The notes under the pieces are model-generated. The model searched no databases and was not told the DNA's origin. It was given only the letters and a program-made list of their open reading frames with translations. The translations under genes and the position numbers were made by a program. Source: Escherichia phage vB_EcoM_4HA13. Taken from it: a stretch of DNA of 52,401 nt. Each line of letters begins with the position of its first letter. Position 1 is the first letter of the stretch. Below, piece by piece: positions 4,731-42,297 of the stretch. The stretch lies in sequence record NC_049466.2; one strand, given 5' to 3'.

Positions 4731-4948
4731 GTAATCTAGCAGCATTTAAGAATCTGGTTCGTCGTGCTCAAGTTAAAGCTGATAACCAGATTTGCCTGAT
4801 TGAGAATATGCCAATTACAACAAATGTTGGAATAATTCTGTATGCAGATAAGCGCATTAAAGAATTGGAAGCTACAATTCAAGCAATGCTGGAAACAGCA
4901 GAAGGTGCTGGCATTCCACGTTGTCAATTTGACGAGGATTTAAAATGA
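4727..4948 (+). CDS. Hypothetical protein
   Basis: Internal ATG at 4727 preceded by GGAGAA; the track ORF from 4676 overlaps the upstream small gene. Confidence 0.45.
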   Translation: MSNLAAFKNLVRRAQVKADNQICLIENMPITTNVGIILYADKRIKELEATIQAMLETAEGAGIPRCQFDEDLK

Positions 4949-30170: not shown

Positions 30171-31510
30171 TGGCTTCCCATGATGCACATGTTTTAAAAC
30201 AAGCTGGCTTCCAAAAGAAGAAGCTGGCTGATGGTCTTGAGAATTTCGTATCGGGGTTAGGCGGTGCAAAGGATAAGTCCTCGCACAACATTTGGACATT
30301 TTCCAATAAGAATGCCAACTACCATGAACTCATGAATCGCTTTCGCGAAGATTGGGTATCACAAAAGATATGTTCTATTATCCCTCAAGACATGACACGT
30401 AAATGGCGACACATTGATACAGAAGAAGGACGCAAAGCTGATAAGAAGTTACGACTTCGTAAGCTGTTCCGTGAAGCGTATCAATGGGCTAGACTATATG
30501 GAACATCTTTTGTCCTCCTTGATATTAAAGGCACTGGCAAATTAGATACACCATTGCGTCTGGATAACTTGAAGAAGGGATGTATCAGGTCCATGAGAGT
30601 TATTGACCGTTCACGTATGTGGGCCGCTGGTGCAATAGTGCTGGATGCTTTGAGTCCCCATTATGGTATGCCGGAGTTTTATACTCTGTCAGGCTATTCT
30701 GGAATGATTCACCATTCCCGTTTTGTGCGTTTCGAAGGAACAGAACTTCCGTTGTTCGAATTCCAACGAAACATGTGGTATTCTGATTCAGTGTTGATAC
30801 CGCTGTTGAAAACCATAGACCAGTTCTACACGACTGCTGCCGCTGCCGCAAACTTGGCGCAGGAAGCAACCATCGATGTAGTTTCTGTTGCAGGATTCCA
30901 ATCACTTCTGACAAGTCCAGAAGGGGAAGCTGCTGTCCTCAAACGTTTCAAACTCATGAAACAAGCTAAGAGCATTTATAACGTTCTTATCCTTGATGAC
31001 ACTGAAAAGTATGACACCAAGTCCATCGCCTTGTCAGGCGTTAAAGATTTAATTTGGGAATACCTGAAAATTGTAGCTGCGGCTGTTGGTATTCCGGCAA
31101 CACGTTTCTTATCTGCATCACCTGATGGTATGAATGCTACGGGCGAATCTGACCTCGTAAACTATATCGACTTGCTGACAGGCTTGCAAACTAACATCTT
31201 CGAACCTCGTTTAGATGTGTTCGATGCTTTAGTTCAAGCGCACTTTGGTATTGAGGAATATACATACGAATGGTGTGATATATTCCCTGAATCAAATGTT
31301 GAGAGAGCGAAACGTGCAGTGGATGTTGCTACTGCATTGGACCTATTAATTGCTAATGGGACAATCACTACCAAAACTGCGAACTGCATTATTGCACACT
31401 CGAAAGTATTTGGTGAATGTGATGTAGGCGAAGCAAATCCCAATCCTCCAAACATGCAGAAAGGTAATGCAGACAATGCGAAACCATCCAGCACCAGTAA
31501 GTCTAAATGA
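30170..31510 (+). CDS. Portal protein (putative)
   Basis: Size and position directly after terminase. Confidence 0.6.
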   Translation: MASHDAHVLKQAGFQKKKLADGLENFVSGLGGAKDKSSHNIWTFSNKNANYHELMNRFREDWVSQKICSIIPQDMTRKWRHIDTEEGRKADKKLRLRKLFREAYQWARLYGTSFVLLDIKGTGKLDTPLRLDNLKKGCIRSMRVIDRSRMWAAGAIVLDALSPHYGMPEFYTLSGYSGMIHHSRFVRFEGTELPLFEFQRNMWYSDSVLIPLLKTIDQFYTTAAAAANLAQEATIDVVSVAGFQSLLTSPEGEAAVLKRFKLMKQAKSIYNVLILDDTEKYDTKSIALSGVKDLIWEYLKIVAAAVGIPATRFLSASPDGMNATGESDLVNYIDLLTGLQTNIFEPRLDVFDALVQAHFGIEEYTYEWCDIFPESNVERAKRAVDVATALDLLIANGTITTKTANCIIAHSKVFGECDVGEANPNPPNMQKGNADNAKPSSTSKSK

Positions 31511-32543
31511 CGAGGAAACTGTATCTGTCGTAATGTTCGCTGACCGACAAACGATTCAGTCTGCTCGTGTATTACGAGACTCTGGCGAAATGATTGCGCC
31601 TGTTACGATTGCTCGTACTGGCGACATGCTATACAAAGCCAAGGAGCTTGGTCCAGATTTTGCTGACCTTCCTCCTGACCAAGTTGTTCGAGTTAATACT
31701 CCAGCAGAAGTTTTATTTGATGAAGCAACCATTAACCTTTGCCGTTCAATGGCAGTTACTGTTGGTCATCCTGCAAAAGATATTGACCTGTCGAACAACA
31801 AAGAGTTGCAGAAAGGTTTCCTTGAAGGTGCTCCCTCTGCTGACGGCTCTCACCTCAGCGGCTACGTCGTCTTGAATGATGCAGCAACTATTAAATTAGT
31901 TGATTCTGGTGTTGACCAGACTTCATGGGGACATGATGCAGTTCTGAAACGTGTTGAAGAAAACGGTATTGTGTCTGCTGTTAAGACCAAAATCACTGCT
32001 GTCAACCATTTGGCTATCGTTCGTCGTGGCCGTGCTCAGACAACTCGTATCGGCGATTCCGGCGAAGAAATTGAAATTGTTGATAAAGCAACTTTCGATT
32101 CTGTTGAAGCTGAACGTGATGATGCTCTGGCAAAGATTGGCGTACTCACTCAGAAACTTTCTGATGCAGCATCTGCCAAACTTTCCGACGAAGAGATTCA
32201 GAATATTGTTGACGAGCGTGTAGTTGCTCGCACCGAACTTCTGATTGAAGTTGCCAAGCTTGGTGACGAATATGTCAAAATGGATTTCAAGGGCAAGTCT
32301 GAATCTGAAATTAAACGTGAAGTTGTTTCCAAACTGCATGACAAAGATTTCAGCGACAAGAGCGATGACTATATCGCTGCCCGATTCGATACCGCGCTGG
32401 AAGATTGTGAATCTGTTTCACTCAGTGATGCTTTGAATCAGTCTGTTGTTGATGCTGCTAATAAGGCTGCACAATCCCAGGAACGTAAACCAAATGCGCG
32501 TGATGAAGCATTAGCTCGTCGTGCTGCCCGTTATAATAAATAA
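31467..32543 (+). CDS. Head scaffold / prohead protease-like protein (putative)
   Basis: Position between portal and capsid; acidic coiled-coil-like C-terminal half. Confidence 0.45.
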   Translation: MQTMRNHPAPVSLNDEETVSVVMFADRQTIQSARVLRDSGEMIAPVTIARTGDMLYKAKELGPDFADLPPDQVVRVNTPAEVLFDEATINLCRSMAVTVGHPAKDIDLSNNKELQKGFLEGAPSADGSHLSGYVVLNDAATIKLVDSGVDQTSWGHDAVLKRVEENGIVSAVKTKITAVNHLAIVRRGRAQTTRIGDSGEEIEIVDKATFDSVEAERDDALAKIGVLTQKLSDAASAKLSDEEIQNIVDERVVARTELLIEVAKLGDEYVKMDFKGKSESEIKREVVSKLHDKDFSDKSDDYIAARFDTALEDCESVSLSDALNQSVVDAANKAAQSQERKPNARDEALARRAARYNK

Positions 32544-32552
32544 GGTCTGATA

Positions 32553-33026
32553 ATGCCAAAGCAAGATTGGAACATTAACACTGGTGAAGCATACGCTGGC
32601 GAACAGTATGGCTTGGCCACCACAAACTCTCAGCGTCTTACTTACAGCACCGAAGTAGCAATGGCTCACTTTGGTCTGGCTGTTCAGCCGGGCGCTAAGT
32701 ATAATACCTGTAAGCCGGGCCACGACGCTGGCAAAATTCTCGGCGTTGTCATGCGCCAGAACATTCTGGAATCTAAAACTCGTCCGGGCGATGGCACCAT
32801 TAACATTCCGGTTGGTCAGCCGTTGGGCATCATGCTCGAAGGTCCAGTCATGGTTAAGCTGATTACTGCAATCACTGATTCTAAAGTTGGCGTATCTGCT
32901 ACTGGTGAATTTGGTGGCGTAGCTGCTGGTGCTTATACTGAATGTACCAATGCTGTTGCACTGAAATACCCAGCTGCTGCTGGCGACGTTATCCCAATTA
33001 TGATTAACGTCATCCCAAAGCCGTAA
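32553..33026 (+). CDS. Head structural protein (decoration or minor capsid), frame-0 product
   Basis: Between scaffold and major capsid; carries slippery heptamer CCCAAAG two codons before its stop. Confidence 0.55.
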   Translation: MPKQDWNINTGEAYAGEQYGLATTNSQRLTYSTEVAMAHFGLAVQPGAKYNTCKPGHDAGKILGVVMRQNILESKTRPGDGTINIPVGQPLGIMLEGPVMVKLITAITDSKVGVSATGEFGGVAAGAYTECTNAVALKYPAAAGDVIPIMINVIPKP

Positions 33027-33322
33027 CGCCGCCGCCTACAGCCCCGACTGTAACTCCGGTTGCAGGTACAGTAACTGCTAATGCTTCAACTGCTAATGCA
33101 ACTGTAACTGTAGACAAGCTGTTTACGTTCGGTAACTCTGCGGCAACGGATTACAACTTCTCTGTTGACCCTGCTGTAACTGGCGTGTCTGTGGCGGCAA
33201 ATGGTACTGTGACTGTTGCAACTGCAACGATTGGTACTGCAACGACTGCAACAATCAAAGCTGTTAACAAAACGACTGCAAGTGTAACTGCTTCCAAAGC
33301 GATTACAATCACGCATCCGTAA
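33008..33322 (+). CDS. -1 frameshift extension of the 32553 gene: Pro/Thr linker plus Ig-like domain, no start codon of its own
   Basis: -1 frame is open from 33008 to TAA at 33320-33322 with no ATG; CCCAAAG at 33014-33020 fits X XXY YYZ in the upstream frame. Confidence 0.55.
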   Translation, partial: RHPKAVTPPPTAPTVTPVAGTVTANASTANATVTVDKLFTFGNSAATDYNFSVDPAVTGVSVAANGTVTVATATIGTATTATIKAVNKTTASVTASKAITITHP

Positions 33323-33367
33323 TTAATTTCAGGCGTAGCAATGGTGTTGCGCCTAAAGGAATAAGAA

Positions 33368-34381
33368 ATGCCAAAGATTATCAAACTGGCTGACGGTACT
33401 GATTTCGAACTGGACGAAGCACTTGTCCGTATTCAGGATTCCGGTACTGTAACTCTGTCCGATGACGATGCTGTATATTTCCAGCGTCAACTTGAGTTCA
33501 TTGAAGCTCAAACTTACGATACCCTGTATCCTGACTTGGAGGCTCGTGACGCTTTCGGTGTTGATACAACTGGTGGTCCGGGTGCTCAAACTCTGACGTA
33601 TCGTTCGTACAACCATGTTGGTAAAGCACAAGTAATCAACGCTCGTGCAACTGACCTGCCAAAGCCAAACATTTCCGGTAAGGAATATTCTGTTACCGTT
33701 AAATCTGTTGGTACTGCATACGACTATGATGTTGACGAGATTGCTGCTGCCTCTATGGTAACTGGCATGTCTCTGGAAACTCGTAAAGCGAATGCTGCTA
33801 TTCGTGGTTACGAACAGTACGTTAACGCGACCGCATGGTACGGCGATGCTGCAAACGGTTTCGTTGGTTTCTTCGAAGACCCGGATATCACTCGTGCTGA
33901 CGTTGCCCCGACTCAGGGTGGCTCTGATACTGAGTGGGCGAAGAAGAAGCCGTCAGAAGTTATCGCTGACCTGACTTCTGCTACGTCTGCAATGTATGCA
34001 ACCACGTTAAAGATTATGCGTCCTGAAGAAATTTGGATGCCTGTTGAACACGAACAGTATATCTTCAACACCCCACGTTCTGACCAGTCTGATATGTCAA
34101 TCGGTAACTGGTTCTTGGCTAACAACCAGTTCATTAAGTCCCGCGAGAAAATCAAAGGTCTGAACGCAATCAAAGGTCACGGTAAAGCTGGCGCTGATTG
34201 TTTCGTTGTTGTTTGCCGCACTGCACAAGGCAACAAGACTTTCCGTCTGCGTGAACCACTGGCACTGACTTGGATGCCAGTTCAGTTACATGGTCTGGTG
34301 TATGAAATTCCTGGCCGTGGTCGTTTCGCTGGTTTCCAAACCATGTATCCGGCAGCACTGTCCATTAACTCTGGTATTTAA
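33368..34381 (+). CDS. Major capsid protein (putative)
   Basis: 337 aa, strong RBS, E. coli-like high-expression codons, follows scaffold gene. Confidence 0.6.
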   Translation: MPKIIKLADGTDFELDEALVRIQDSGTVTLSDDDAVYFQRQLEFIEAQTYDTLYPDLEARDAFGVDTTGGPGAQTLTYRSYNHVGKAQVINARATDLPKPNISGKEYSVTVKSVGTAYDYDVDEIAAASMVTGMSLETRKANAAIRGYEQYVNATAWYGDAANGFVGFFEDPDITRADVAPTQGGSDTEWAKKKPSEVIADLTSATSAMYATTLKIMRPEEIWMPVEHEQYIFNTPRSDQSDMSIGNWFLANNQFIKSREKIKGLNAIKGHGKAGADCFVVVCRTAQGNKTFRLREPLALTWMPVQLHGLVYEIPGRGRFAGFQTMYPAALSINSGI

Positions 34382-38055: not shown

Positions 38056-38514
38056 ATGGCTTGTGAATTACTACAACGTGAATTCACAAACTCCAAAGGT
38101 GAGAAAGTGCTGGTGGTTGTTCGTCAAATGGCGGCAGCCTCAGCACTTGACTTACACGTGGAGTTAGTCGGAAAGCTAGGCACAAGGATTTTCCCTTTCA
38201 TCGAAGATAAGTATACCTTTGGTGATATCATCTTCCTAATGCAGCAACAAGAGCATCCGGTATTCACAGAATTATTCAAACGCGTAATCAGCATTAATGT
38301 GCAGCTAGAGGGTCAGGAAGTTAAACCGGCCCTATTTAACATGCAGTTCAATGGTGAACTGATGCTGGCCTGTAAAGTCTTTGGTTTGGTATTGGAAGCA
38401 AACTTCTTGAGTTTTTTCAAGCAAGGGCTCGAAATCAACGAACAGAGACGGTTGGAGGCGGTCGAAGCATCCAAGCTGGCAGAGCAGAAGAATTCGAGTC
38501 CGGAGACGATTTAA
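38056..38514 (+). CDS. Tail assembly chaperone G
   Basis: Directly upstream of the tape-measure gene; contains slippery TTTTTTC with a -1 frame open to the tape-measure start. Confidence 0.55.
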   Translation: MACELLQREFTNSKGEKVLVVVRQMAAASALDLHVELVGKLGTRIFPFIEDKYTFGDIIFLMQQQEHPVFTELFKRVISINVQLEGQEVKPALFNMQFNGELMLACKVFGLVLEANFLSFFKQGLEINEQRRLEAVEASKLAEQKNSSPETI

Positions 38515-38690
38515 GTTCCCTGTTCCCGGATATAAGATACTTCCTGCATCGTCCATTAATCGAGGACAGTTCTCTTTGTCGTTTATGTGAACTTCAAGAT
38601 GGAACTTACTCGGTTATGGACCTTTTAACATTCCATGATATCCTCGACCTTCGTGAGAAACTCAAACCAGTAGAAGAAGATAATGGCTAA
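38412..38690 (+). CDS. -1 frameshift extension of tail chaperone (GT product)
   Basis: -1 frame is open from 38376 to TAA at 38688-38690; slippery TTTTTTC at 38412-38418; stop overlaps the tape-measure ATG. Confidence 0.5.
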   Translation, partial: FFQARARNQRTETVGGGRSIQAGRAEEFESGDDLSSLFPDIRYFLHRPLIEDSSLCRLCELQDGTYSVMDLLTFHDILDLREKLKPVEEDNG

Positions 38691-41600
38691 TCAAAAAGAA
38701 TTAATGCGCCTTACAGCTCAAGAATTAATTGGGATGGGAGCGCAATACGGTCTCACCTTCCATGCTGGAATGAAGAAGTCGCACATGGTTCAGCAACTTA
38801 GTGCAAGCGCTGCTTCTGGATGGATGGATGTTAATGCAGGATTGACGTCTGGAGTTCCAGAGGATGATGGTATTACTTCATCCTTTGGTGGCTCTTCAAT
38901 GATTTCAGATGCTGCTCACGTAGCACAAATGTTGTCAGGTGCTGGATTCACCGAAACTTTCCATGCTGCAATGAATGGCCCTTCACATCATGTTGAAGCT
39001 ATTCACAACTATATGCAGCAACTTGGCGTAAGCTCTGACGATGTTTGGATGCATATGCCGCACGCTAATCCAAATGTACCTGCTGGTCATTTCGGTATGT
39101 TGAATAACTACATGCGAGATACTTTGCAAGGTCATCAAGATATTATGCCTGAGATTGCTGGTCATTATTCTGGCGATATCATGGGCGAGTACGCTACAGA
39201 CAAAGGTGGCATTTCTGCGTCGTATGAACATTTAGCTCATATGTATGTTGATAAGTCCCAATACAGTAGCGAACATTTATATGGTGCAGACGTATCTCGT
39301 GTTGCATCAAGACTTGCAATTGGTATGGGAAGCAAATTCTCTGAGGTGGCATTCTCTGCTGCACAGGGAGCACATGTTTCTTACATGTCAGCACTTCCTA
39401 ATCTCGGAGACCCATCAATAGTTGGTGGTGTATCTCACCCTCGCGCTGCTTTAAATGCCTCTGGTCTTCCAATGGGTGCGATTGGTTCTGGTATTAATCC
39501 AGAATATTCTTTAGCTGCTTCTCTCACTGGAACTCCTGGATGGAGTCCTTCAAGTAAAGAAGTATATTCCAACGTATCAGATACTGTAAAGTCTTTGGCT
39601 GGAGTATATCGTGGCGAAACTGGAATGGAAGGTCGTCGTCATATTACTTCTGAACGTGATATGATTATGGATTCTGCTTCTCGTTATGCAGATATCTCTG
39701 ATGTACGTTCTGGCTATGCAAACTTGACCAGAGAGTTGACAGATGACCCACACTATTCTGCAACAAACATTCGTGCAATAATTGATAATAATTATGACCG
39801 CATGGATGCAGAGTCAATGGCAGCCCCGAGTGGAGTTGCTAATCCAGATTTGCGACTACCAACGATAGCAGAAACTGGAACTGCTTTCACCACAGATATT
39901 AGCGAGCCAACAAGTTGGAACTCCGCTCGTGCTCGTCGTGAAAGTATCGCTATATCTAACATGGATTCTATTCCGTGGTCTGATATAGAAAATAATTCTG
40001 GCCCAGTTAAGTTCCATAATCTTGAACAAGGTAGTCAAGAGTGGCTGGACTTCCGAAAGAACTACGACATAACAGGTTCTACTGTTGGCGGGTTCCTCGG
40101 TAATAATGCCTACACTCGTCCGTGGGCGGAAATGGTTGACAAGATTGGCTTATCAAGAAGTAAAGAGCCGAGTGCATTTCAACAAAGAATGTTTGATGCT
40201 GGTCATAAAACAGAGGACGAAGCACGTATCAGAGTTGCTAAACAACTCGGTACTGATATCCAGCAAACTGGTGCAATAACCAATGACAATTATCCATCAT
40301 TCATGTATTCGCCGGATGGTCTCATTGGTGATGATGCGATTTGGGAACATAAGAATCCTGAACGTGCTGGCAAATTTGCTAACTTATCTGCTGGCGACCA
40401 TCCAGACTATATGGACCAAGTGCAATTTGGTATGCTTGTATCTGGTCGTTCTCGTGCACTGTTCTCACAAACCATCGGTAGTGAAACCAAATCTCAATGG
40501 ATTGAGAAAGATGAAGGTTGGTACGAAAGAAACAGAAACCGACTAGATTCTACTCTTGGTCGTCTTGATGCTGGTCGAGCATTTGTTCGCGAGAATAATG
40601 ATTTACCTCCAGATGAATTAATTAAAGGCGCTCGTGCAGCAATGATGGGAGAGGGCATCTGGAAAGATGTTTCTCAGAAATCAAATCGTGGATACTCCGC
40701 ATCTGCGGGTACTTCTGCTGACCCATTTATTGCAACCGACACTTCCGCAATAACTCCAGAGTCTATGGCAATGTCTGTCAAGACTGGTATCTTGGCTGCA
40801 CAAGAAGACAATCGTCAGAAAGCTGGAGCTGGACTGCCTTCTGGAAATACCGACCCGTTCGAAATGCAACGTGAAAGTGCTGATGAAGCATTTGATACAA
40901 TGATGCGTCGTGCTGGATATAATAATTTCGGTGGAGGTGGTGGCGGTGGTGGAAGACCACCCAGCAATGGTGGAAGTTTCTACGATGACTTTGGTCGTGC
41001 TGGTGGTGCTCTTGCTGCTGGTGTTGCTGGTGGAAGCATATCGTCTTTAAGTAGTGGTGCAATGCAAGCACTTATGGCTACACCAATGGGCCGTATGATT
41101 GGAATGGGAATTGGTGCAATTCAAATTGGTAACGAAGCTGCGGAAGGGTTGAACGACTTTGTCGGTAATGCTCTTGATGCTGGTTTAGTTAATCCAAATG
41201 AATACTCGTCAATGTCTCAGGGCATGGAAATGTTGGGACTCAATTCTCAACAAGCCGGAAGATTAAATCAAACGACACATAGTGCCTACAACACCCTGCT
41301 AAATGGCGACCCAAGCGGCGCTATCCGCATCGTTCAGGGAACCCGTGGTCTTATCAACATAGGCGACATTCGTGCAACTGAGGGCGACCCAGTGGCCCTA
41401 GCTCGCATTATGCGTGAACGTGGACAGGAGCGGGGATGGAGTCAGGCGCGGATAGCTGGCGCAACTCAAATGGCAGGACTCGACGGCATGGCAAGAGCCT
41501 TTGACCGTGGAGAATACAGCCAGAGCCAAGCGGAGCAGGTCGTTCAGGCTGGACGTGACTCAGACTATGCACAAGGAACAAGTGAGCTAGAAATGTTGCA

Positions 41601-42297
41601 GGGAGAGCGAGCGAGGGCATTGCCCGGCTACAACCTTCCGCAAGCTGCTGTCACATATGGTGGTCCGATTTTCGGTGCTGCTAGTGATGCTGTACTTCAA
41701 GCTCGTGTTGCTGGTGGTCAGGTTGCTTCTGGTGCTCGCTCAGTTTATGACTTTATCATGGGTGAAGAATCTGGTGGTCGTGATTACAATGCTGATGGTA
41801 GTGTTGTAACAAGCAGGACTGGTGCACAAGGAAGAATGCAAGTTCTAAACTCCACCAACCGTGACCCAGGGTTTGATGTGCGTCCTGCCCAAAATGACTC
41901 TCTTGATGAACGTGCTCGTGTAGGTCGCGATTACTTTGATGCGATGTTGAAGCGTTATGGTGATTACGATAAAGCAATGGCTGCGTACACTGATGGACCG
42001 GGAACTGTAGACAGAGCAGTCCAAGAGCATGGCACTGACTGGCTTAATGCCGTCCCAGCACAAGCACAAAACAGAGTTAAAGCGTTCCACGATTGGCAAC
42101 AAAATGGTGGACAGCTTACTGATGGTGCTGGTGGATTTACTCGTAATGGTGTTTCATATGGACAGACTACAGTCGTTCAAGTGAACATTAATGCTAAAGT
42201 AAATGGACAAAGTGCATCAGCAACTGTATCAACTCCAAATGGTGCTTCTGCCTCTCAGCAGATTAACGTTGGAAATGGTGCAATGCAGAAAAGATAA
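38683..42297 (+). CDS. Tail tape measure protein with embedded YqaJ-like PD-(D/E)XK nuclease domain and C-terminal lytic transglycosylase domain
   Basis: 1204 aa after the chaperone; Gly-rich hydrophobic segments; QGSQEWLDFRK...ITGSTV...SPDGL...WEHKNP is a YqaJ-like pattern; C-terminal GEESGGRDYN...AQGRMQV is SLT-like. Confidence 0.7.
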   Translation: MANQKELMRLTAQELIGMGAQYGLTFHAGMKKSHMVQQLSASAASGWMDVNAGLTSGVPEDDGITSSFGGSSMISDAAHVAQMLSGAGFTETFHAAMNGPSHHVEAIHNYMQQLGVSSDDVWMHMPHANPNVPAGHFGMLNNYMRDTLQGHQDIMPEIAGHYSGDIMGEYATDKGGISASYEHLAHMYVDKSQYSSEHLYGADVSRVASRLAIGMGSKFSEVAFSAAQGAHVSYMSALPNLGDPSIVGGVSHPRAALNASGLPMGAIGSGINPEYSLAASLTGTPGWSPSSKEVYSNVSDTVKSLAGVYRGETGMEGRRHITSERDMIMDSASRYADISDVRSGYANLTRELTDDPHYSATNIRAIIDNNYDRMDAESMAAPSGVANPDLRLPTIAETGTAFTTDISEPTSWNSARARRESIAISNMDSIPWSDIENNSGPVKFHNLEQGSQEWLDFRKNYDITGSTVGGFLGNNAYTRPWAEMVDKIGLSRSKEPSAFQQRMFDAGHKTEDEARIRVAKQLGTDIQQTGAITNDNYPSFMYSPDGLIGDDAIWEHKNPERAGKFANLSAGDHPDYMDQVQFGMLVSGRSRALFSQTIGSETKSQWIEKDEGWYERNRNRLDSTLGRLDAGRAFVRENNDLPPDELIKGARAAMMGEGIWKDVSQKSNRGYSASAGTSADPFIATDTSAITPESMAMSVKTGILAAQEDNRQKAGAGLPSGNTDPFEMQRESADEAFDTMMRRAGYNNFGGGGGGGGRPPSNGGSFYDDFGRAGGALAAGVAGGSISSLSSGAMQALMATPMGRMIGMGIGAIQIGNEAAEGLNDFVGNALDAGLVNPNEYSSMSQGMEMLGLNSQQAGRLNQTTHSAYNTLLNGDPSGAIRIVQGTRGLINIGDIRATEGDPVALARIMRERGQERGWSQARIAGATQMAGLDGMARAFDRGEYSQSQAEQVVQAGRDSDYAQGTSELEMLQGERARALPGYNLPQAAVTYGGPIFGAASDAVLQARVAGGQVASGARSVYDFIMGEESGGRDYNADGSVVTSRTGAQGRMQVLNSTNRDPGFDVRPAQNDSLDERARVGRDYFDAMLKRYGDYDKAMAAYTDGPGTVDRAVQEHGTDWLNAVPAQAQNRVKAFHDWQQNGGQLTDGAGGFTRNGVSYGQTTVVQVNINAKVNGQSASATVSTPNGASASQQINVGNGAMQKR

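What the first reader, a model, noticed from the sequence alone, without database searches (positions are those of the whole stretch)
32553..33322. Candidate -1 frameshift adding an Ig-like domain to a head protein
The 157-aa ORF ends at 33026, but the -1 frame is open from 33008 to 33322 with no start codon and encodes a Pro/Thr linker followed by a Thr/Ala/Val-rich Ig-like segment. The heptamer CCCAAAG at 33014-33020 fits X XXY YYZ in the upstream frame, two codons before its stop. This layout is known from other phage structural proteins with Ig-like decorations.
Basis: partly seen in the sequence, partly recalled or inferred. Interest (0 to 1): 0.7.

Follow-up and report, generated by a model that had tools for sequence, protein, structure and literature searches.

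The report
Frameshift adds Ig domain to capsid cement
The capsid "cement" (decoration) gene of E. coli phage vB_EcoM-4HA13 almost certainly uses a programmed -1 ribosomal frameshift at C_CCA_AAG to give a minority of its copies a linker plus an immunoglobulin-like domain; the trick is known from other phages, but no database record or paper examined here reports it for this phage family.

Summary
The 157-aa ORF (32553-33026) ends ...AT C_CCA_AAG CCG TAA. The -1 frame is open from 33008 to 33322 and contains no ATG. The window is the complete 52,401-bp genome of Escherichia phage vB_EcoM-4HA13 (Chaseviridae). The 157-aa protein is a capsid cement/decoration protein: it matches Pfam Phage_cement, its predicted fold matches the Pam3, T1, XM1 and TW1 cement proteins, and published virion MS covers it 100%. 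The 100-aa extension is predicted with confidence (pLDDT 91) as an Ig-like beta-sandwich.

Comparative evidence is strong. About 19 distinct relatives carry a -1 extension, and all have a shift site at the same place: C_CCA_AAG in nearly all, C_CCA_AAA, G_GGA_AAA or only A_AAG in one each. The residue before the site varies (I/V/G/A/S), but its codon always ends in C. Six relatives without an extension have no heptamer. In the -1 frame dN/dS is 0.09-0.16. No conserved start codon or Shine-Dalgarno site exists. Different Ig-like domain families, and a tandem duplication, sit behind the same site.

No stimulatory RNA structure or upstream SD-like element is found in this phage, so the shift is probably infrequent. 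The trans-frame protein has not been detected directly. Verdict: a real, unannotated -1 frameshift and a new member of a known kind.

The parts
32553..33026 (+). 0-frame gene for the capsid cement/decoration protein (157 aa, 16.4 kDa; AC4HA13_0057 of phage 4HA13)
   Evidence: ORF. Pfam PF22758 Phage_cement at E=7e-19, 68.8 bits against a cut-off of 27, and PF23982 XM1_gp53. PHROG 563 'virion structural protein'. AF2 pLDDT 86, with top Foldseek PDB hits to the Pam3, T1, HFTV1, FCWL1, Sf11, XM1, Pa193 and TW1 cement/decoration proteins. Published virion LC-MS/MS lists a 16.5-kDa AC4HA13_0057 with 100% coverage (PMC9699118 Table S2).
33014..33020 (+). Slippery heptamer C_CCA_AAG (X_XXY_YYZ in the 0 frame): tRNA-Pro shifts from CCA to CCC and tRNA-Lys from AAG to AAA
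   Evidence: Sequence. CCCAAA is invariant in 15 aligned relatives, although the codon before it encodes I, V, G, A or S and always ends in C. It is the only CCCAAAG on the coding strand of the genome. It is the most efficient -1 heptamer in E. coli (PMC4066793; PMC5009743).
33024..33026 (+). 0-frame stop codon TAA, one sense codon after the heptamer
   Evidence: In the Cleopatravirinae-type relatives that carry an extension, the stop lies 0-1 codon after the shift site. In the distant metagenomic relative L022 it is five codons after.
33020..33322 (+). -1 frame extension: 100 sense codons plus TAA (33320-33322). The predicted trans-frame product is join(32553..33020,33020..33322), 256 aa, 25.95 kDa, with junction ...MINVIPK-AVTPPP...
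   Evidence: Translation. dN/dS 0.09-0.16 in this frame against 1.3-2.9 in the other two phases, with substitutions concentrated at third positions. No ATG and no conserved start.
33020..33046 (+). Pro/Thr-rich linker (AVTPPPTAP; approximate boundary)
   Evidence: Lower pLDDT (mean 71) and no secondary structure for extension residues 1-9. A Pro-rich linker (V/A-V-T/A-P-P/A/S-P/A...) directly follows the junction in most relatives with an extension, whatever domain follows. Myduc has a Pro-rich variant and L022 has NGSGS instead.
33047..33319 (+). Ig-like beta-sandwich domain (about 90 aa)
   Evidence: AF2 mean pLDDT 90.9, nine beta strands. Foldseek PDB hits: the T5 pb6 tail-tube protein (E=6.5e-4, TM 0.61), invasin, SraP and the phi29 capsid protein gp8. 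PHROG 13745 'Ig domain containing protein', E=2.8e-5. No Pfam hit.
33368..34381 (+). Major capsid protein gene (context: binding partner of the cement protein)
   Evidence: Pfam PF09950 at E=1e-41. The peptide IKGLNAIK at residue 262 matches the 4HA13 major capsid protein.
31467..32543 (+). DUF2213 prohead protease/scaffold gene (context)
   Evidence: Pfam PF09979. PHROG 530 'head maturation protease'.

Best explanation
The window is the genome of E. coli phage vB_EcoM-4HA13 (Chaseviridae, Cleopatravirinae-like). Gene 32553-33026 encodes its capsid cement/decoration protein. [quoted passage not shown]

Most ribosomes terminate at TAA 33024-33026 and make the 157-aa protein. A minority slip back one nucleotide while CCA and AAG occupy the P and A sites: tRNA-Pro re-pairs with CCC and tRNA-Lys(UUU) with AAA. 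They then read GCC GTA ACG CCG... in the -1 frame and make a 256-aa protein. This protein consists of the cement domain, a roughly 9-residue Pro/Thr linker and a roughly 90-residue Ig-like beta-sandwich.

The long form would co-assemble with the short form, so that a sub-stoichiometric number of Ig-like domains project from the capsid surface. These domains probably give weak adhesion to carbohydrates on the host surface or in mucus.

Shown by computation: the anatomy, the conservation, the coding signature, the folds, and the absence of a start. Taken from the literature: the shiftiness of C_CCA_AAG in E. coli, and the presence of the short form in virions. Inferred: that the shift occurs, its frequency (probably about 0.3% to a few percent, because no stimulator is detectable here), that the long form is incorporated into capsids, and the adhesive role.
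For: 1. The anatomy is exactly as required.

2. Across about 19 distinct relatives that carry a -1 extension (67-74% nucleotide identity or less), a shift site sits at the same place. It is C_CCA_AAG in nearly all, C_CCA_AAA in L019 and G_GGA_AAA in the 42%-identical L022. Proteus phage Myduc keeps only A_AAG-TAA. The preceding codon is ATC, GTC, GGC, GCC or TCC: five amino acids, always ending in C.

3. Six relatives without an extension have no in-frame heptamer anywhere in the gene. These are L008, Aeromonas pAh6.2TG, BUCT696 and ZPAH14, Shewanella Spp001 and Vibrio VPs20.

4. The -1 frame is under purifying selection. dN/dS is 0.09-0.16 and differences fall at codon positions in ratios such as 16/6/45. 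The same alignment read in the other two phases gives 1.3-2.9.

5. There is no independent initiation site. 15 of 17 extensions have no ATG. GTG/TTG codons lie at non-conserved, mostly mid-domain positions with weak SD matches. In PM1, L018 and L019 the only candidate is at codon 32, 58 and 51 respectively. Gene callers chose six different starts. The CPT annotators of Myduc found an RBS for every neighbouring gene but none for this ORF.

6. The conserved linker lies upstream of every candidate start.

7. Different Ig-like domain families sit behind the same site, including one that passes the Pfam Ig_2 cut-off. Phage flopper has two tandem copies in one 193-codon -1 ORF.

8. The folds fit: a cement protein and an Ig-like domain.

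9. C_CC.A_AA.G is the most efficient -1 heptamer measured in E. coli (PMC4066793). Frameshift-added Ig-like domains on phage structural proteins are an established phenomenon (PMC5009743).

10. The short form is an abundant virion protein with 100% MS coverage (PMC9699118).
Against: - The 256-aa protein has never been detected directly. The published 4HA13 proteome lists only proteins with at least 50% coverage of annotated ORFs.
- No stimulator is found in this phage. The downstream 75 nt fold no better than shuffles (z=0.06), RNAalifold finds no conserved structure, and there is no upstream SD-like element. Without a stimulator this heptamer gave only about 0.3% frameshifting in reporters, and up to about 3.7% with the best 3' context. 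The product could therefore be very rare.
- The extension matches no Pfam Ig family, and the structural matches are modest (best E=6.5e-4, TM 0.61).
- No natural in-frame cement-Ig fusion was found among 76 family representatives.
- Myduc lacks a canonical heptamer. An A_AAG-TAA ending also occurs in pAh6.2TG, which has no extension.
- The relatives are not phylogenetically independent.
Confidence: 0.88

Rival explanations
1. The -1 ORF is an independent small gene, translated from its own non-canonical start. Several GenBank records annotate it this way: Y2 gp67 'Ig domain containing protein', MLP1 gp04, Faunus gp52 and Myduc 056.
For: Gene callers and annotators-91-aa ORFs here. GTG/TTG codons do occur inside the frame.
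Against: In the window the first start-like codon is GTG at extension codon 56, which would give only half an Ig domain. The called starts fall at six different alignment columns. SD matches are weak. PM1, L018 and L019 have a single mid-domain candidate. The Pro-rich linker and the first beta strands lie upstream of all candidates yet are conserved as protein. This model explains neither the invariant heptamer nor its loss together with the ORF.
Confidence: 0.04
2. The same trans-frame product is made by a different slippage mode: single-tRNA (P-site) -1 slippage of tRNA-Lys on A_AAG while the next codon (CCG, TCG or a stop) is decoded slowly, rather than tandem P/A-site slippage on the full heptamer.
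For: Myduc retains only G_GCA_AAG followed directly by TAA. In Y2 and SSEM1 the stop also directly follows AAG. A_AAG is by far the shiftiest tetramer in E. coli (PMC4066793).
Against: The CCC part of the heptamer is invariant in every other lineage with an extension, at the cost of fixing a synonymous position across five different amino acids. That argues that P-site re-pairing of tRNA-Pro matters. Both modes yield the same protein sequence.
Confidence: 0.06
3. The open -1 frame is a decaying remnant or a chance ORF, or the frame change is a sequencing or assembly error in a gene that is really in frame.
For: A 100-codon open frame arises by chance at about 0.8% in this composition. The reverse-strand frames of the same stretch are also nearly stop-free.
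Against: The same frame arrangement appears in about 20 independently sequenced genomes and metagenomic contigs. dN/dS of about 0.1 excludes a pseudogene. The predicted fold is confident. Virion MS covered 100% of the 157-aa 0-frame product, which argues that termination at 33024 is real.
Confidence: 0.01

Closest known systems
Frameshift-derived capsid protein extensions: Lactobacillus phage A2 gp5A/5B and the T3 coat protein (-1 frameshift, Ig-like extension), the T7 coat protein extension (-1, not Ig-like), and the Listeria phage A118, A500 (-1) and PSA (+1) coat protein products
   Same: A slippery site near the 3' end of an abundant capsid gene produces a minor, C-terminally extended form that co-assembles with the major form. 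In T3 and A2 the extension is Ig-like (PMC5009743). From my own knowledge, not checked here: the A2 site is C_CCA_AAA, which is the variant seen in relative L019.
   Different: Here the recoded gene is the separate cement/decoration protein, not the HK97-fold major capsid protein. No stimulatory stem-loop is detectable in this phage. The case is not described in the papers searched.
Ig-like domains on tailed phages (described in PMC5009743 as mobile modules that land in or out of frame); T4 Hoc and T5 pb10 as decoration proteins with in-frame Ig-like domains
   Same: A capsid-binding module is joined to surface-exposed Ig-like domain(s). The Ig modules are exchangeable: at least three barely related domain groups and a tandem duplication occur behind the same site in this family.
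   Different: Hoc and pb10 carry their Ig domains in frame, on every copy, and bind at hexamer centres. Here the Ig domain would be on a minority of copies of a 3-fold cement protein. The window's domain passes no Pfam Ig model.
Cement/decoration proteins of Pfam PF22758/PF23982: E217 gp24, Pam3 gp6, XM1 gp53, TW1 Dec and the T1 decoration protein
   Same: The sequence matches the family above the curated cut-off. The predicted fold matches solved members. The gene lies immediately upstream of the major capsid gene, as XM1 gene 53 lies before gene 54.
   Different: Among 76 detectable family representatives almost all are 145-187 aa and none has a C-terminal Ig domain. I found no report of recoding in these solved members.
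Phage lambda G/GT tail assembly chaperone frameshift (G_GGA_AAG)
   Same: A V_VVA_AAG-type heptamer. From my own knowledge: it works at a low, fixed percentage without a strong RNA stimulator and sets a stoichiometric ratio of two products. G_GGA_AAG and C_CCA_AAG are grouped as the most shift-prone E. coli heptamers.
   Different: It acts on a different gene and has a different purpose (an assembly chaperone, not a virion surface display). This genome seems to have its own chaperone-type candidate, T_TTT_TTC at 38412.

Membership tests
Programmed -1 ribosomal frameshift site (tandem slippage, X_XXY_YYZ) | Slippery heptamer in the correct register of the upstream frame, allowing A- and P-site tRNA re-pairing | tested here: met
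   AT C_CCA_AAG CCG TAA at 33014-33020. This is the most efficient heptamer in E. coli.
Programmed -1 ribosomal frameshift site (tandem slippage, X_XXY_YYZ) | Overlapping -1 ORF that encodes a conserved protein and lacks its own initiation signal | tested here: met
   dN/dS 0.09-0.16. No ATG and no conserved GTG/TTG or SD.
Programmed -1 ribosomal frameshift site (tandem slippage, X_XXY_YYZ) | Shift site conserved beyond what the amino-acid sequence requires, and co-occurring with the -1 ORF | tested here: met
   CCCAAA is invariant in 15 aligned relatives, with five different preceding amino acids all encoded by NNC codons. The heptamer is absent in all 6 relatives that lack the extension.
Programmed -1 ribosomal frameshift site (tandem slippage, X_XXY_YYZ) | Cis-acting stimulator (downstream hairpin or pseudoknot 5-9 nt away, or upstream SD-like element). 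Common but not obligatory. | tested here: not met
   Window: z=-0.98 and 0.06. No consensus structure. Upstream SD duplex +0.6 kcal/mol. Some relatives (L018, L019, L009/L015, GJ1) have lineage-specific stable stem-loops with z from -2.6 to -3.8.
Programmed -1 ribosomal frameshift site (tandem slippage, X_XXY_YYZ) | Trans-frame protein observed (junction peptide or larger band) and dependent on the slip site | not testable with these tools
   Published 4HA13 MS reports only the 157-aa form. Raw data are not available here.
Phage cement/decoration protein (Pfam PF22758 Phage_cement; PF23982 XM1_gp53) | Profile match above the curated cut-off | tested here: met
   PF22758 at 68.8 bits (cut-off 27), E=7e-19. 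PF23982 at 46.5 bits (cut-off 27). The 256-aa fusion query gave no hit.
Phage cement/decoration protein (Pfam PF22758 Phage_cement; PF23982 XM1_gp53) | Fold shared with solved cement proteins | tested here: met
   AF2 pLDDT 86. Foldseek: Pam3 8hdt_G (E=1.7e-6, TM 0.71), T1 9kzj_I, XM1 7kmx_a, TW1 5wk1_K, Pa193 9b40_K.
Phage cement/decoration protein (Pfam PF22758 Phage_cement; PF23982 XM1_gp53) | Virion component encoded next to the major capsid gene | tested here: met
   Gene order is portal, protease, this gene, major capsid protein. The virion MS coverage of 100% is literature evidence.
Phage cement/decoration protein (Pfam PF22758 Phage_cement; PF23982 XM1_gp53) | Trimers at icosahedral and quasi-3-fold axes of the capsid | not testable with these tools
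   Known for XM1 gp53 and TW1 (PMC10457771). No 4HA13 capsid structure exists.
Phage virion Ig-like domains (Pfam Big_2, I-set, Ig_2 and related) | Match to a Pfam Ig-type profile | tested here: not met
   No Pfam hit at E<=1 for the window's extension. PHROG 13745 'Ig domain containing protein' at E=2.8e-5. The extension of relative L009 passes Ig_2 (28.2 bits against 27).
Phage virion Ig-like domains (Pfam Big_2, I-set, Ig_2 and related) | Beta-sandwich of about 90-100 residues resembling solved Ig-like domains | tested here: met
   AF2 pLDDT 90.9, nine strands. Foldseek: T5 pb6 (E=6.5e-4, TM 0.61), invasin, SraP, phi29 gp8 and many Ig-superfamily proteins. The scores are modest.

The most novel reading that the evidence does not exclude
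The invariant C_CCA_AAG site at the end of the cement gene acts as a fixed translational 'socket' across the Cleopatravirinae. Unrelated Ig-like modules (types a/b, c/e, d and f, and tandem duplicates) have been repeatedly swapped in behind it by recombination. The frameshift itself is retained, rather than resolved into an in-frame fusion, because only sub-stoichiometric display is compatible with packing the cement protein as trimers on the capsid. In 4HA13 no RNA stimulator is detectable, so this would mean only a handful of Ig domains per virion, yet these remain under strong purifying selection.
Probability: 0.4. Interest if true: 0.55.

Novelty: new member of a known kind. Interest (0 to 1): 0.45.

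Why it matters
- **Annotation.** A recoded gene is missing or mis-annotated in the Chaseviridae records inspected. The search found 107 phage records with a homologue of the cement gene, and about 66 of them are close, Cleopatravirinae-type relatives. The extension is either left as an intergenic gap or called as a truncated 'hypothetical protein' or 'Ig domain containing protein'. The correct annotation here would be join(32553..33020,33020..33322) with /ribosomal_slippage.
- **Biology.** It extends frameshift-mediated Ig display from major capsid and tail-tube proteins to a cement/decoration protein. It also offers a natural series for studying how display level is tuned: the same slip site with different Ig modules, with or without downstream stem-loops.
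- **Application.** Phages of this family are being developed for biocontrol (4HA13 against STEC; other family members infect Erwinia amylovora or Pectobacterium). Surface Ig-like domains may affect adherence to host surfaces or mucus. [quoted passage not shown]

Tried and rejected
- **Pfam scan of the 256-aa fusion and of the extension:** no hits at all. The 157-aa part alone does hit Phage_cement, so the empty result for the fusion was probably a filter or composition artefact, not real absence.
- **Sequence searches of the PDB:** nothing useful, either with the fusion (phmmer) or with a family profile. Fold search was needed.
- **Search for a stimulatory element:** no conserved structure. 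There is none in the window and only lineage-specific hairpins in some relatives. There is no upstream SD-like element.
- **Search for 'Rosetta-stone' in-frame cement-Ig fusions:** none among 95 close homologues and 76 distant representatives. P0171 and P0172 are longer because of internal insertions. P0153 has only an in-frame Pro-rich tail.
- **Length of the -1 frame past the stop of every long ORF, intended as a null:** uninformative, because overlapping downstream genes dominate the distribution. It was replaced by the genome-wide heptamer scan.
- **Literature searches for a prior description in the Chaseviridae:** nothing relevant. One search was badly designed and returned unrelated papers.
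- **Transcriptional slippage:** rejected, because the site has a run of only three A.
- **Stop-codon readthrough:** rejected, because the extension is not in the 0 frame.
- **Termination-reinitiation:** rejected, because no start codon lies near the stop.
- **Promoter and terminator scan of 32300-33600:** nothing found.
Full report
**1. What is in the sequence**

- The ORF 32553-33026 (157 aa) ends ...ATG ATT AAC GTC ATC CCA AAG CCG TAA.
- CCCAAAG (33014-33020) is therefore in the X_XXY_YYZ register. One sense codon (CCG) lies between it and the stop.
- The -1 frame is open from 33008 to 33322 and reads RHPK AVTPPPTAPTVTPVAGTVTANAS...AITITHP*. The +1 frame closes after 25 codons.
- The -1 ORF has no ATG. 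Its first start-like codons are GTGs at extension codons 56, 58 and 64, with poor Shine-Dalgarno complementarity.

**2. Identity of the window**

- Nucleotide searches place the window in the Chaseviridae. The nearest records (Erwinia phage Faunus, E. coli phages MLP1 and TH23) are only 72-74% identical.
- The paper describing Escherichia phage vB_EcoM-4HA13 (PMC9699118) reports a 52,401-bp genome (MN136198.2) with all genes on one strand, and names Faunus and Mangalitsa as its closest relatives.
- It also reports the peptides 262-IKGLNAIK-269 (major capsid protein) and 37-GDYAAIKCVSSLNPGFDENR-56 (tail completion protein).
- The window is 52,401 bases long and encodes both peptides at exactly those positions. 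It is the 4HA13 genome.
- That paper mentions neither a frameshift nor an Ig-like domain.

**3. What the two parts are**

- The gene order is portal (PF06381), DUF2213 protease/scaffold, the 157-aa gene, then the major capsid protein (PF09950).
- The 157-aa protein:
  - It matches Pfam PF22758 'Structural cement protein (E217 gp24/Pam3 gp6)' at 68.8 bits (cut-off 27), and PF23982 'XM1 gp53 minor capsid protein'.
  - Its AlphaFold model (pLDDT 86) matches solved cement/decoration proteins best: Pam3, T1, HFTV1, FCWL1, Sf11, XM1, Pa193 and TW1, plus the base of the phi29 head fibre.
  - In CsCl-purified 4HA13 virions the 16.5-kDa AC4HA13_0057 protein tops the table with 100% coverage. It follows the 38.8-kDa 'head subunit precursor' in accession order.
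  - So the 'head protein' is an abundant cement/decoration protein.
- The 100-aa extension:
  - It has no Pfam match but matches PHROG 13745 'Ig domain containing protein'.
  - It folds confidently (pLDDT 90.9) into a nine-strand beta-sandwich after a linker of about 9 residues.
  - Its best structural matches are the T5 tail-tube protein pb6, invasin, SraP, the phi29 capsid protein gp8 and many Ig-superfamily proteins. The scores are modest (best E=6.5e-4, TM 0.61).

**4. Comparative test**

I collected the locus from annotated phages and IMG/VR contigs.

- Conservation of the shift site:
  - Every Cleopatravirinae-type relative that has a -1 ORF of 94-193 codons after the cement gene also has a shift site at the same position.
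  - It is C_CCA_AAG in nearly all, C_CCA_AAA in L019 and G_GGA_AAA in the distant L022 (42% identity). Proteus phage Myduc retains only A_AAG followed directly by TAA.
  - In a 15-sequence DNA alignment with 66% mean column identity, CCCAAA is invariant. The codon before it is ATC, GTC, GGC, GCC or TCC: five different amino acids, always ending in C.
- Absence where the extension is absent:
  - The six relatives with no extension have no in-frame X_XXY_YYZ heptamer anywhere in the gene. They are metagenomic L008 and the Aeromonas, Shewanella and Vibrio phages, in which the capsid gene follows within 15-75 nt.
- Coding signature:
  - In the -1 frame dN/dS is 0.09-0.16 and differences fall mainly at third positions (for example 16/6/45). 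The same columns read in the other two phases give 1.3-2.9.
- No independent start:
  - 15 of 17 extensions contain no ATG. GTG/TTG codons lie at non-conserved positions. In PM1, L018 and L019 the only candidate is deep inside the domain.
  - Gene callers chose six different 'starts', giving truncated 70-91-aa proteins.
  - The Myduc annotators marked a ribosome-binding site for each neighbouring gene but none for this ORF.
- The linker:
  - A Pro-rich linker starts at the junction in most relatives, upstream of every candidate start. Myduc has a Pro-rich variant and L022 has a Gly/Ser stretch instead.
- Domain modularity:
  - The domain behind the linker differs between lineages. Types a and b are homologous at about 42% identity.
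  - Type c passes the Pfam Ig_2 cut-off and also hits Ig_3 and I-set. Myduc's type e is weakly related to it.
  - Types d and f stand apart.
  - Phage flopper has two tandem type-a domains in one 193-codon -1 ORF.
- None of the 13 annotated records I inspected annotates ribosomal slippage.

**5. Mechanism**

- C_CC.A_AA.G is the most efficient of all 64 heptamers tested in E. coli. It gave 54% frameshifting with the IS3 pseudoknot, about 0.3% without a stimulator, and up to about 3.7% with an optimal 3' context (PMC4066793; also PMC5009743).
- In the 4HA13 genome CCCAAAG occurs only once on the coding strand.
- A genome-wide scan finds only three in-frame slippery heptamers whose -1 frame extends more than 50 codons past the stop:
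  - this one;
  - T_TTT_TTC at 38412 in the ORF just before the tape-measure gene, the position of the classical tail-chaperone frameshift;
  - a probable trivial gene overlap at 4939.
- I found no stimulator in 4HA13:
  - downstream folding is no better than shuffles (z=-0.98 and 0.06);
  - RNAalifold finds no conserved structure;
  - there is no upstream SD-like sequence.
- Some relatives do have significantly stable stem-loops:
  - L018, starting 6 nt after the site;
  - L019, starting 7 nt after the site;
  - L009/L015, starting about 17 nt downstream;
  - GJ1.
  - Efficiency may therefore be tuned lineage by lineage.
- For 4HA13 I infer a low shift frequency. If its capsid is T=7 with 420 cement subunits (my assumption), this means roughly one to fifteen Ig-bearing subunits per capsid.
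- A single-tRNA slip on A_AAG is a possible variant, and is the only option in Myduc. It gives the same protein.

**6. Rivals**

- An independent gene, a pseudogene or chance ORF, and a sequencing error are each contradicted by sections 4 and 5 and by the 100% MS coverage of the 0-frame product.
- Transcriptional slippage is implausible with a run of three A.
- Readthrough is excluded, because the extension is not in the 0 frame.
- Reinitiation is excluded, because no start codon lies near the stop.

**7. Comparison with what is known**

- Adding C-terminal Ig-like domains to phage structural proteins by frameshifting is established. Examples are the T3 coat protein and Lactobacillus phage A2 by -1 frameshifting. 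The Listeria phages A118, A500 and PSA also frameshift in their coat and tail genes (PMC5009743).
- This locus works in the same way.
- It differs in three respects:
  - the recoded gene is a PF22758-type cement protein;
  - 76 detectable representatives of that family otherwise lack C-terminal Ig domains;
  - it has not been described for the Chaseviridae in the literature I could search.

**8. Verdict**

- It is a new member of a known kind.
- Confidence is about 0.88. The remaining gap is direct detection of the 26-kDa product.
- Interest is moderate (0.45). It is unsurprising in principle, but cleanly supported, family-wide, relevant to annotation, and useful as a natural system for studying modular, sub-stoichiometric capsid display.

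Noticed in passing
window 38412-38418 (within ORF 38056-38514, upstream of the 1204-aa ORF 38683-42297): An in-frame T_TTT_TTC heptamer whose -1 frame stays open for 90 codons, 57 of them beyond the 0-frame stop, and runs up to the start of the tape-measure gene. It looks like the canonical tail-assembly-chaperone (G/GT-type) -1 frameshift.
   Followed up: no
whole window (1-52401): The window is the complete 52,401-bp genome of Escherichia phage vB_EcoM-4HA13 (MN136198.2). The length matches, and so do two published peptides at their published positions. The record was not among the hits in the 'phages' collection, where the best match is 72-74% identical.
   Followed up: yes
relatives L009:2969-3043, L015:2969-3043, L018:2969-3043, L019:2969-3043, L003:782-856: Some relatives have significantly stable stem-loops downstream of the slip site (z from -2.6 to -3.8). 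In L018 and L019 they start 6-7 nt after the heptamer, the classical spacing. L009 and L015 seem to keep the same hairpin through paired changes (CUACAG/CUGUGG against CAACUG/CAGUUG). The window, MLP1, PP101, Myduc and L022 have none.
   Followed up: partly
L005:769-1362 (Escherichia phage flopper; the JL1 match is also about 290 nt longer): The -1 extension holds two tandem copies of the linker plus Ig-like domain in a single 193-codon frame entered through the same C_CCA_AAG site. GenBank annotates only a 142-aa fragment of it.
   Followed up: partly
window 32553-33322 (hmmscan behaviour): The 256-aa fusion sequence returned no Pfam family at all. The 157-aa part alone scores 68.8 bits on Phage_cement. 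The Thr/Ala/Val-rich extension apparently triggers HMMER's composition filters, so searches with the fused product can give a false negative.
   Followed up: partly
protein P0153 (184 aa, metagenomic representative related to L022): The cement domain ends ...VENHLGK and continues in frame with APPTVTPPALEAV... This is a Pro-rich tail resembling the post-frameshift linker, but no Ig domain follows. It could be a resolved or decayed version of the same arrangement, or an indel in the assembly.
   Followed up: no
window 33086-33316 (-) and 33151-33384 (-): Two reverse-strand ORFs of 76-77 aa overlap the extension, and two reverse-complement frames there have a single stop each. These are most likely shadows of the biased ACT/GCT/GTA-rich codon content, since all 4HA13 genes are reported on one strand.
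   Followed up: partly
L025:1501-2010 (Aeromonas phage pAh6.2TG): This cement gene ends ...GAA AAG TAA, an A_AAG tetramer directly before the stop as in Myduc. However, the -1 frame closes after 28 codons and there is no domain. The bare tetramer before a stop is therefore not diagnostic on its own.
   Followed up: yes
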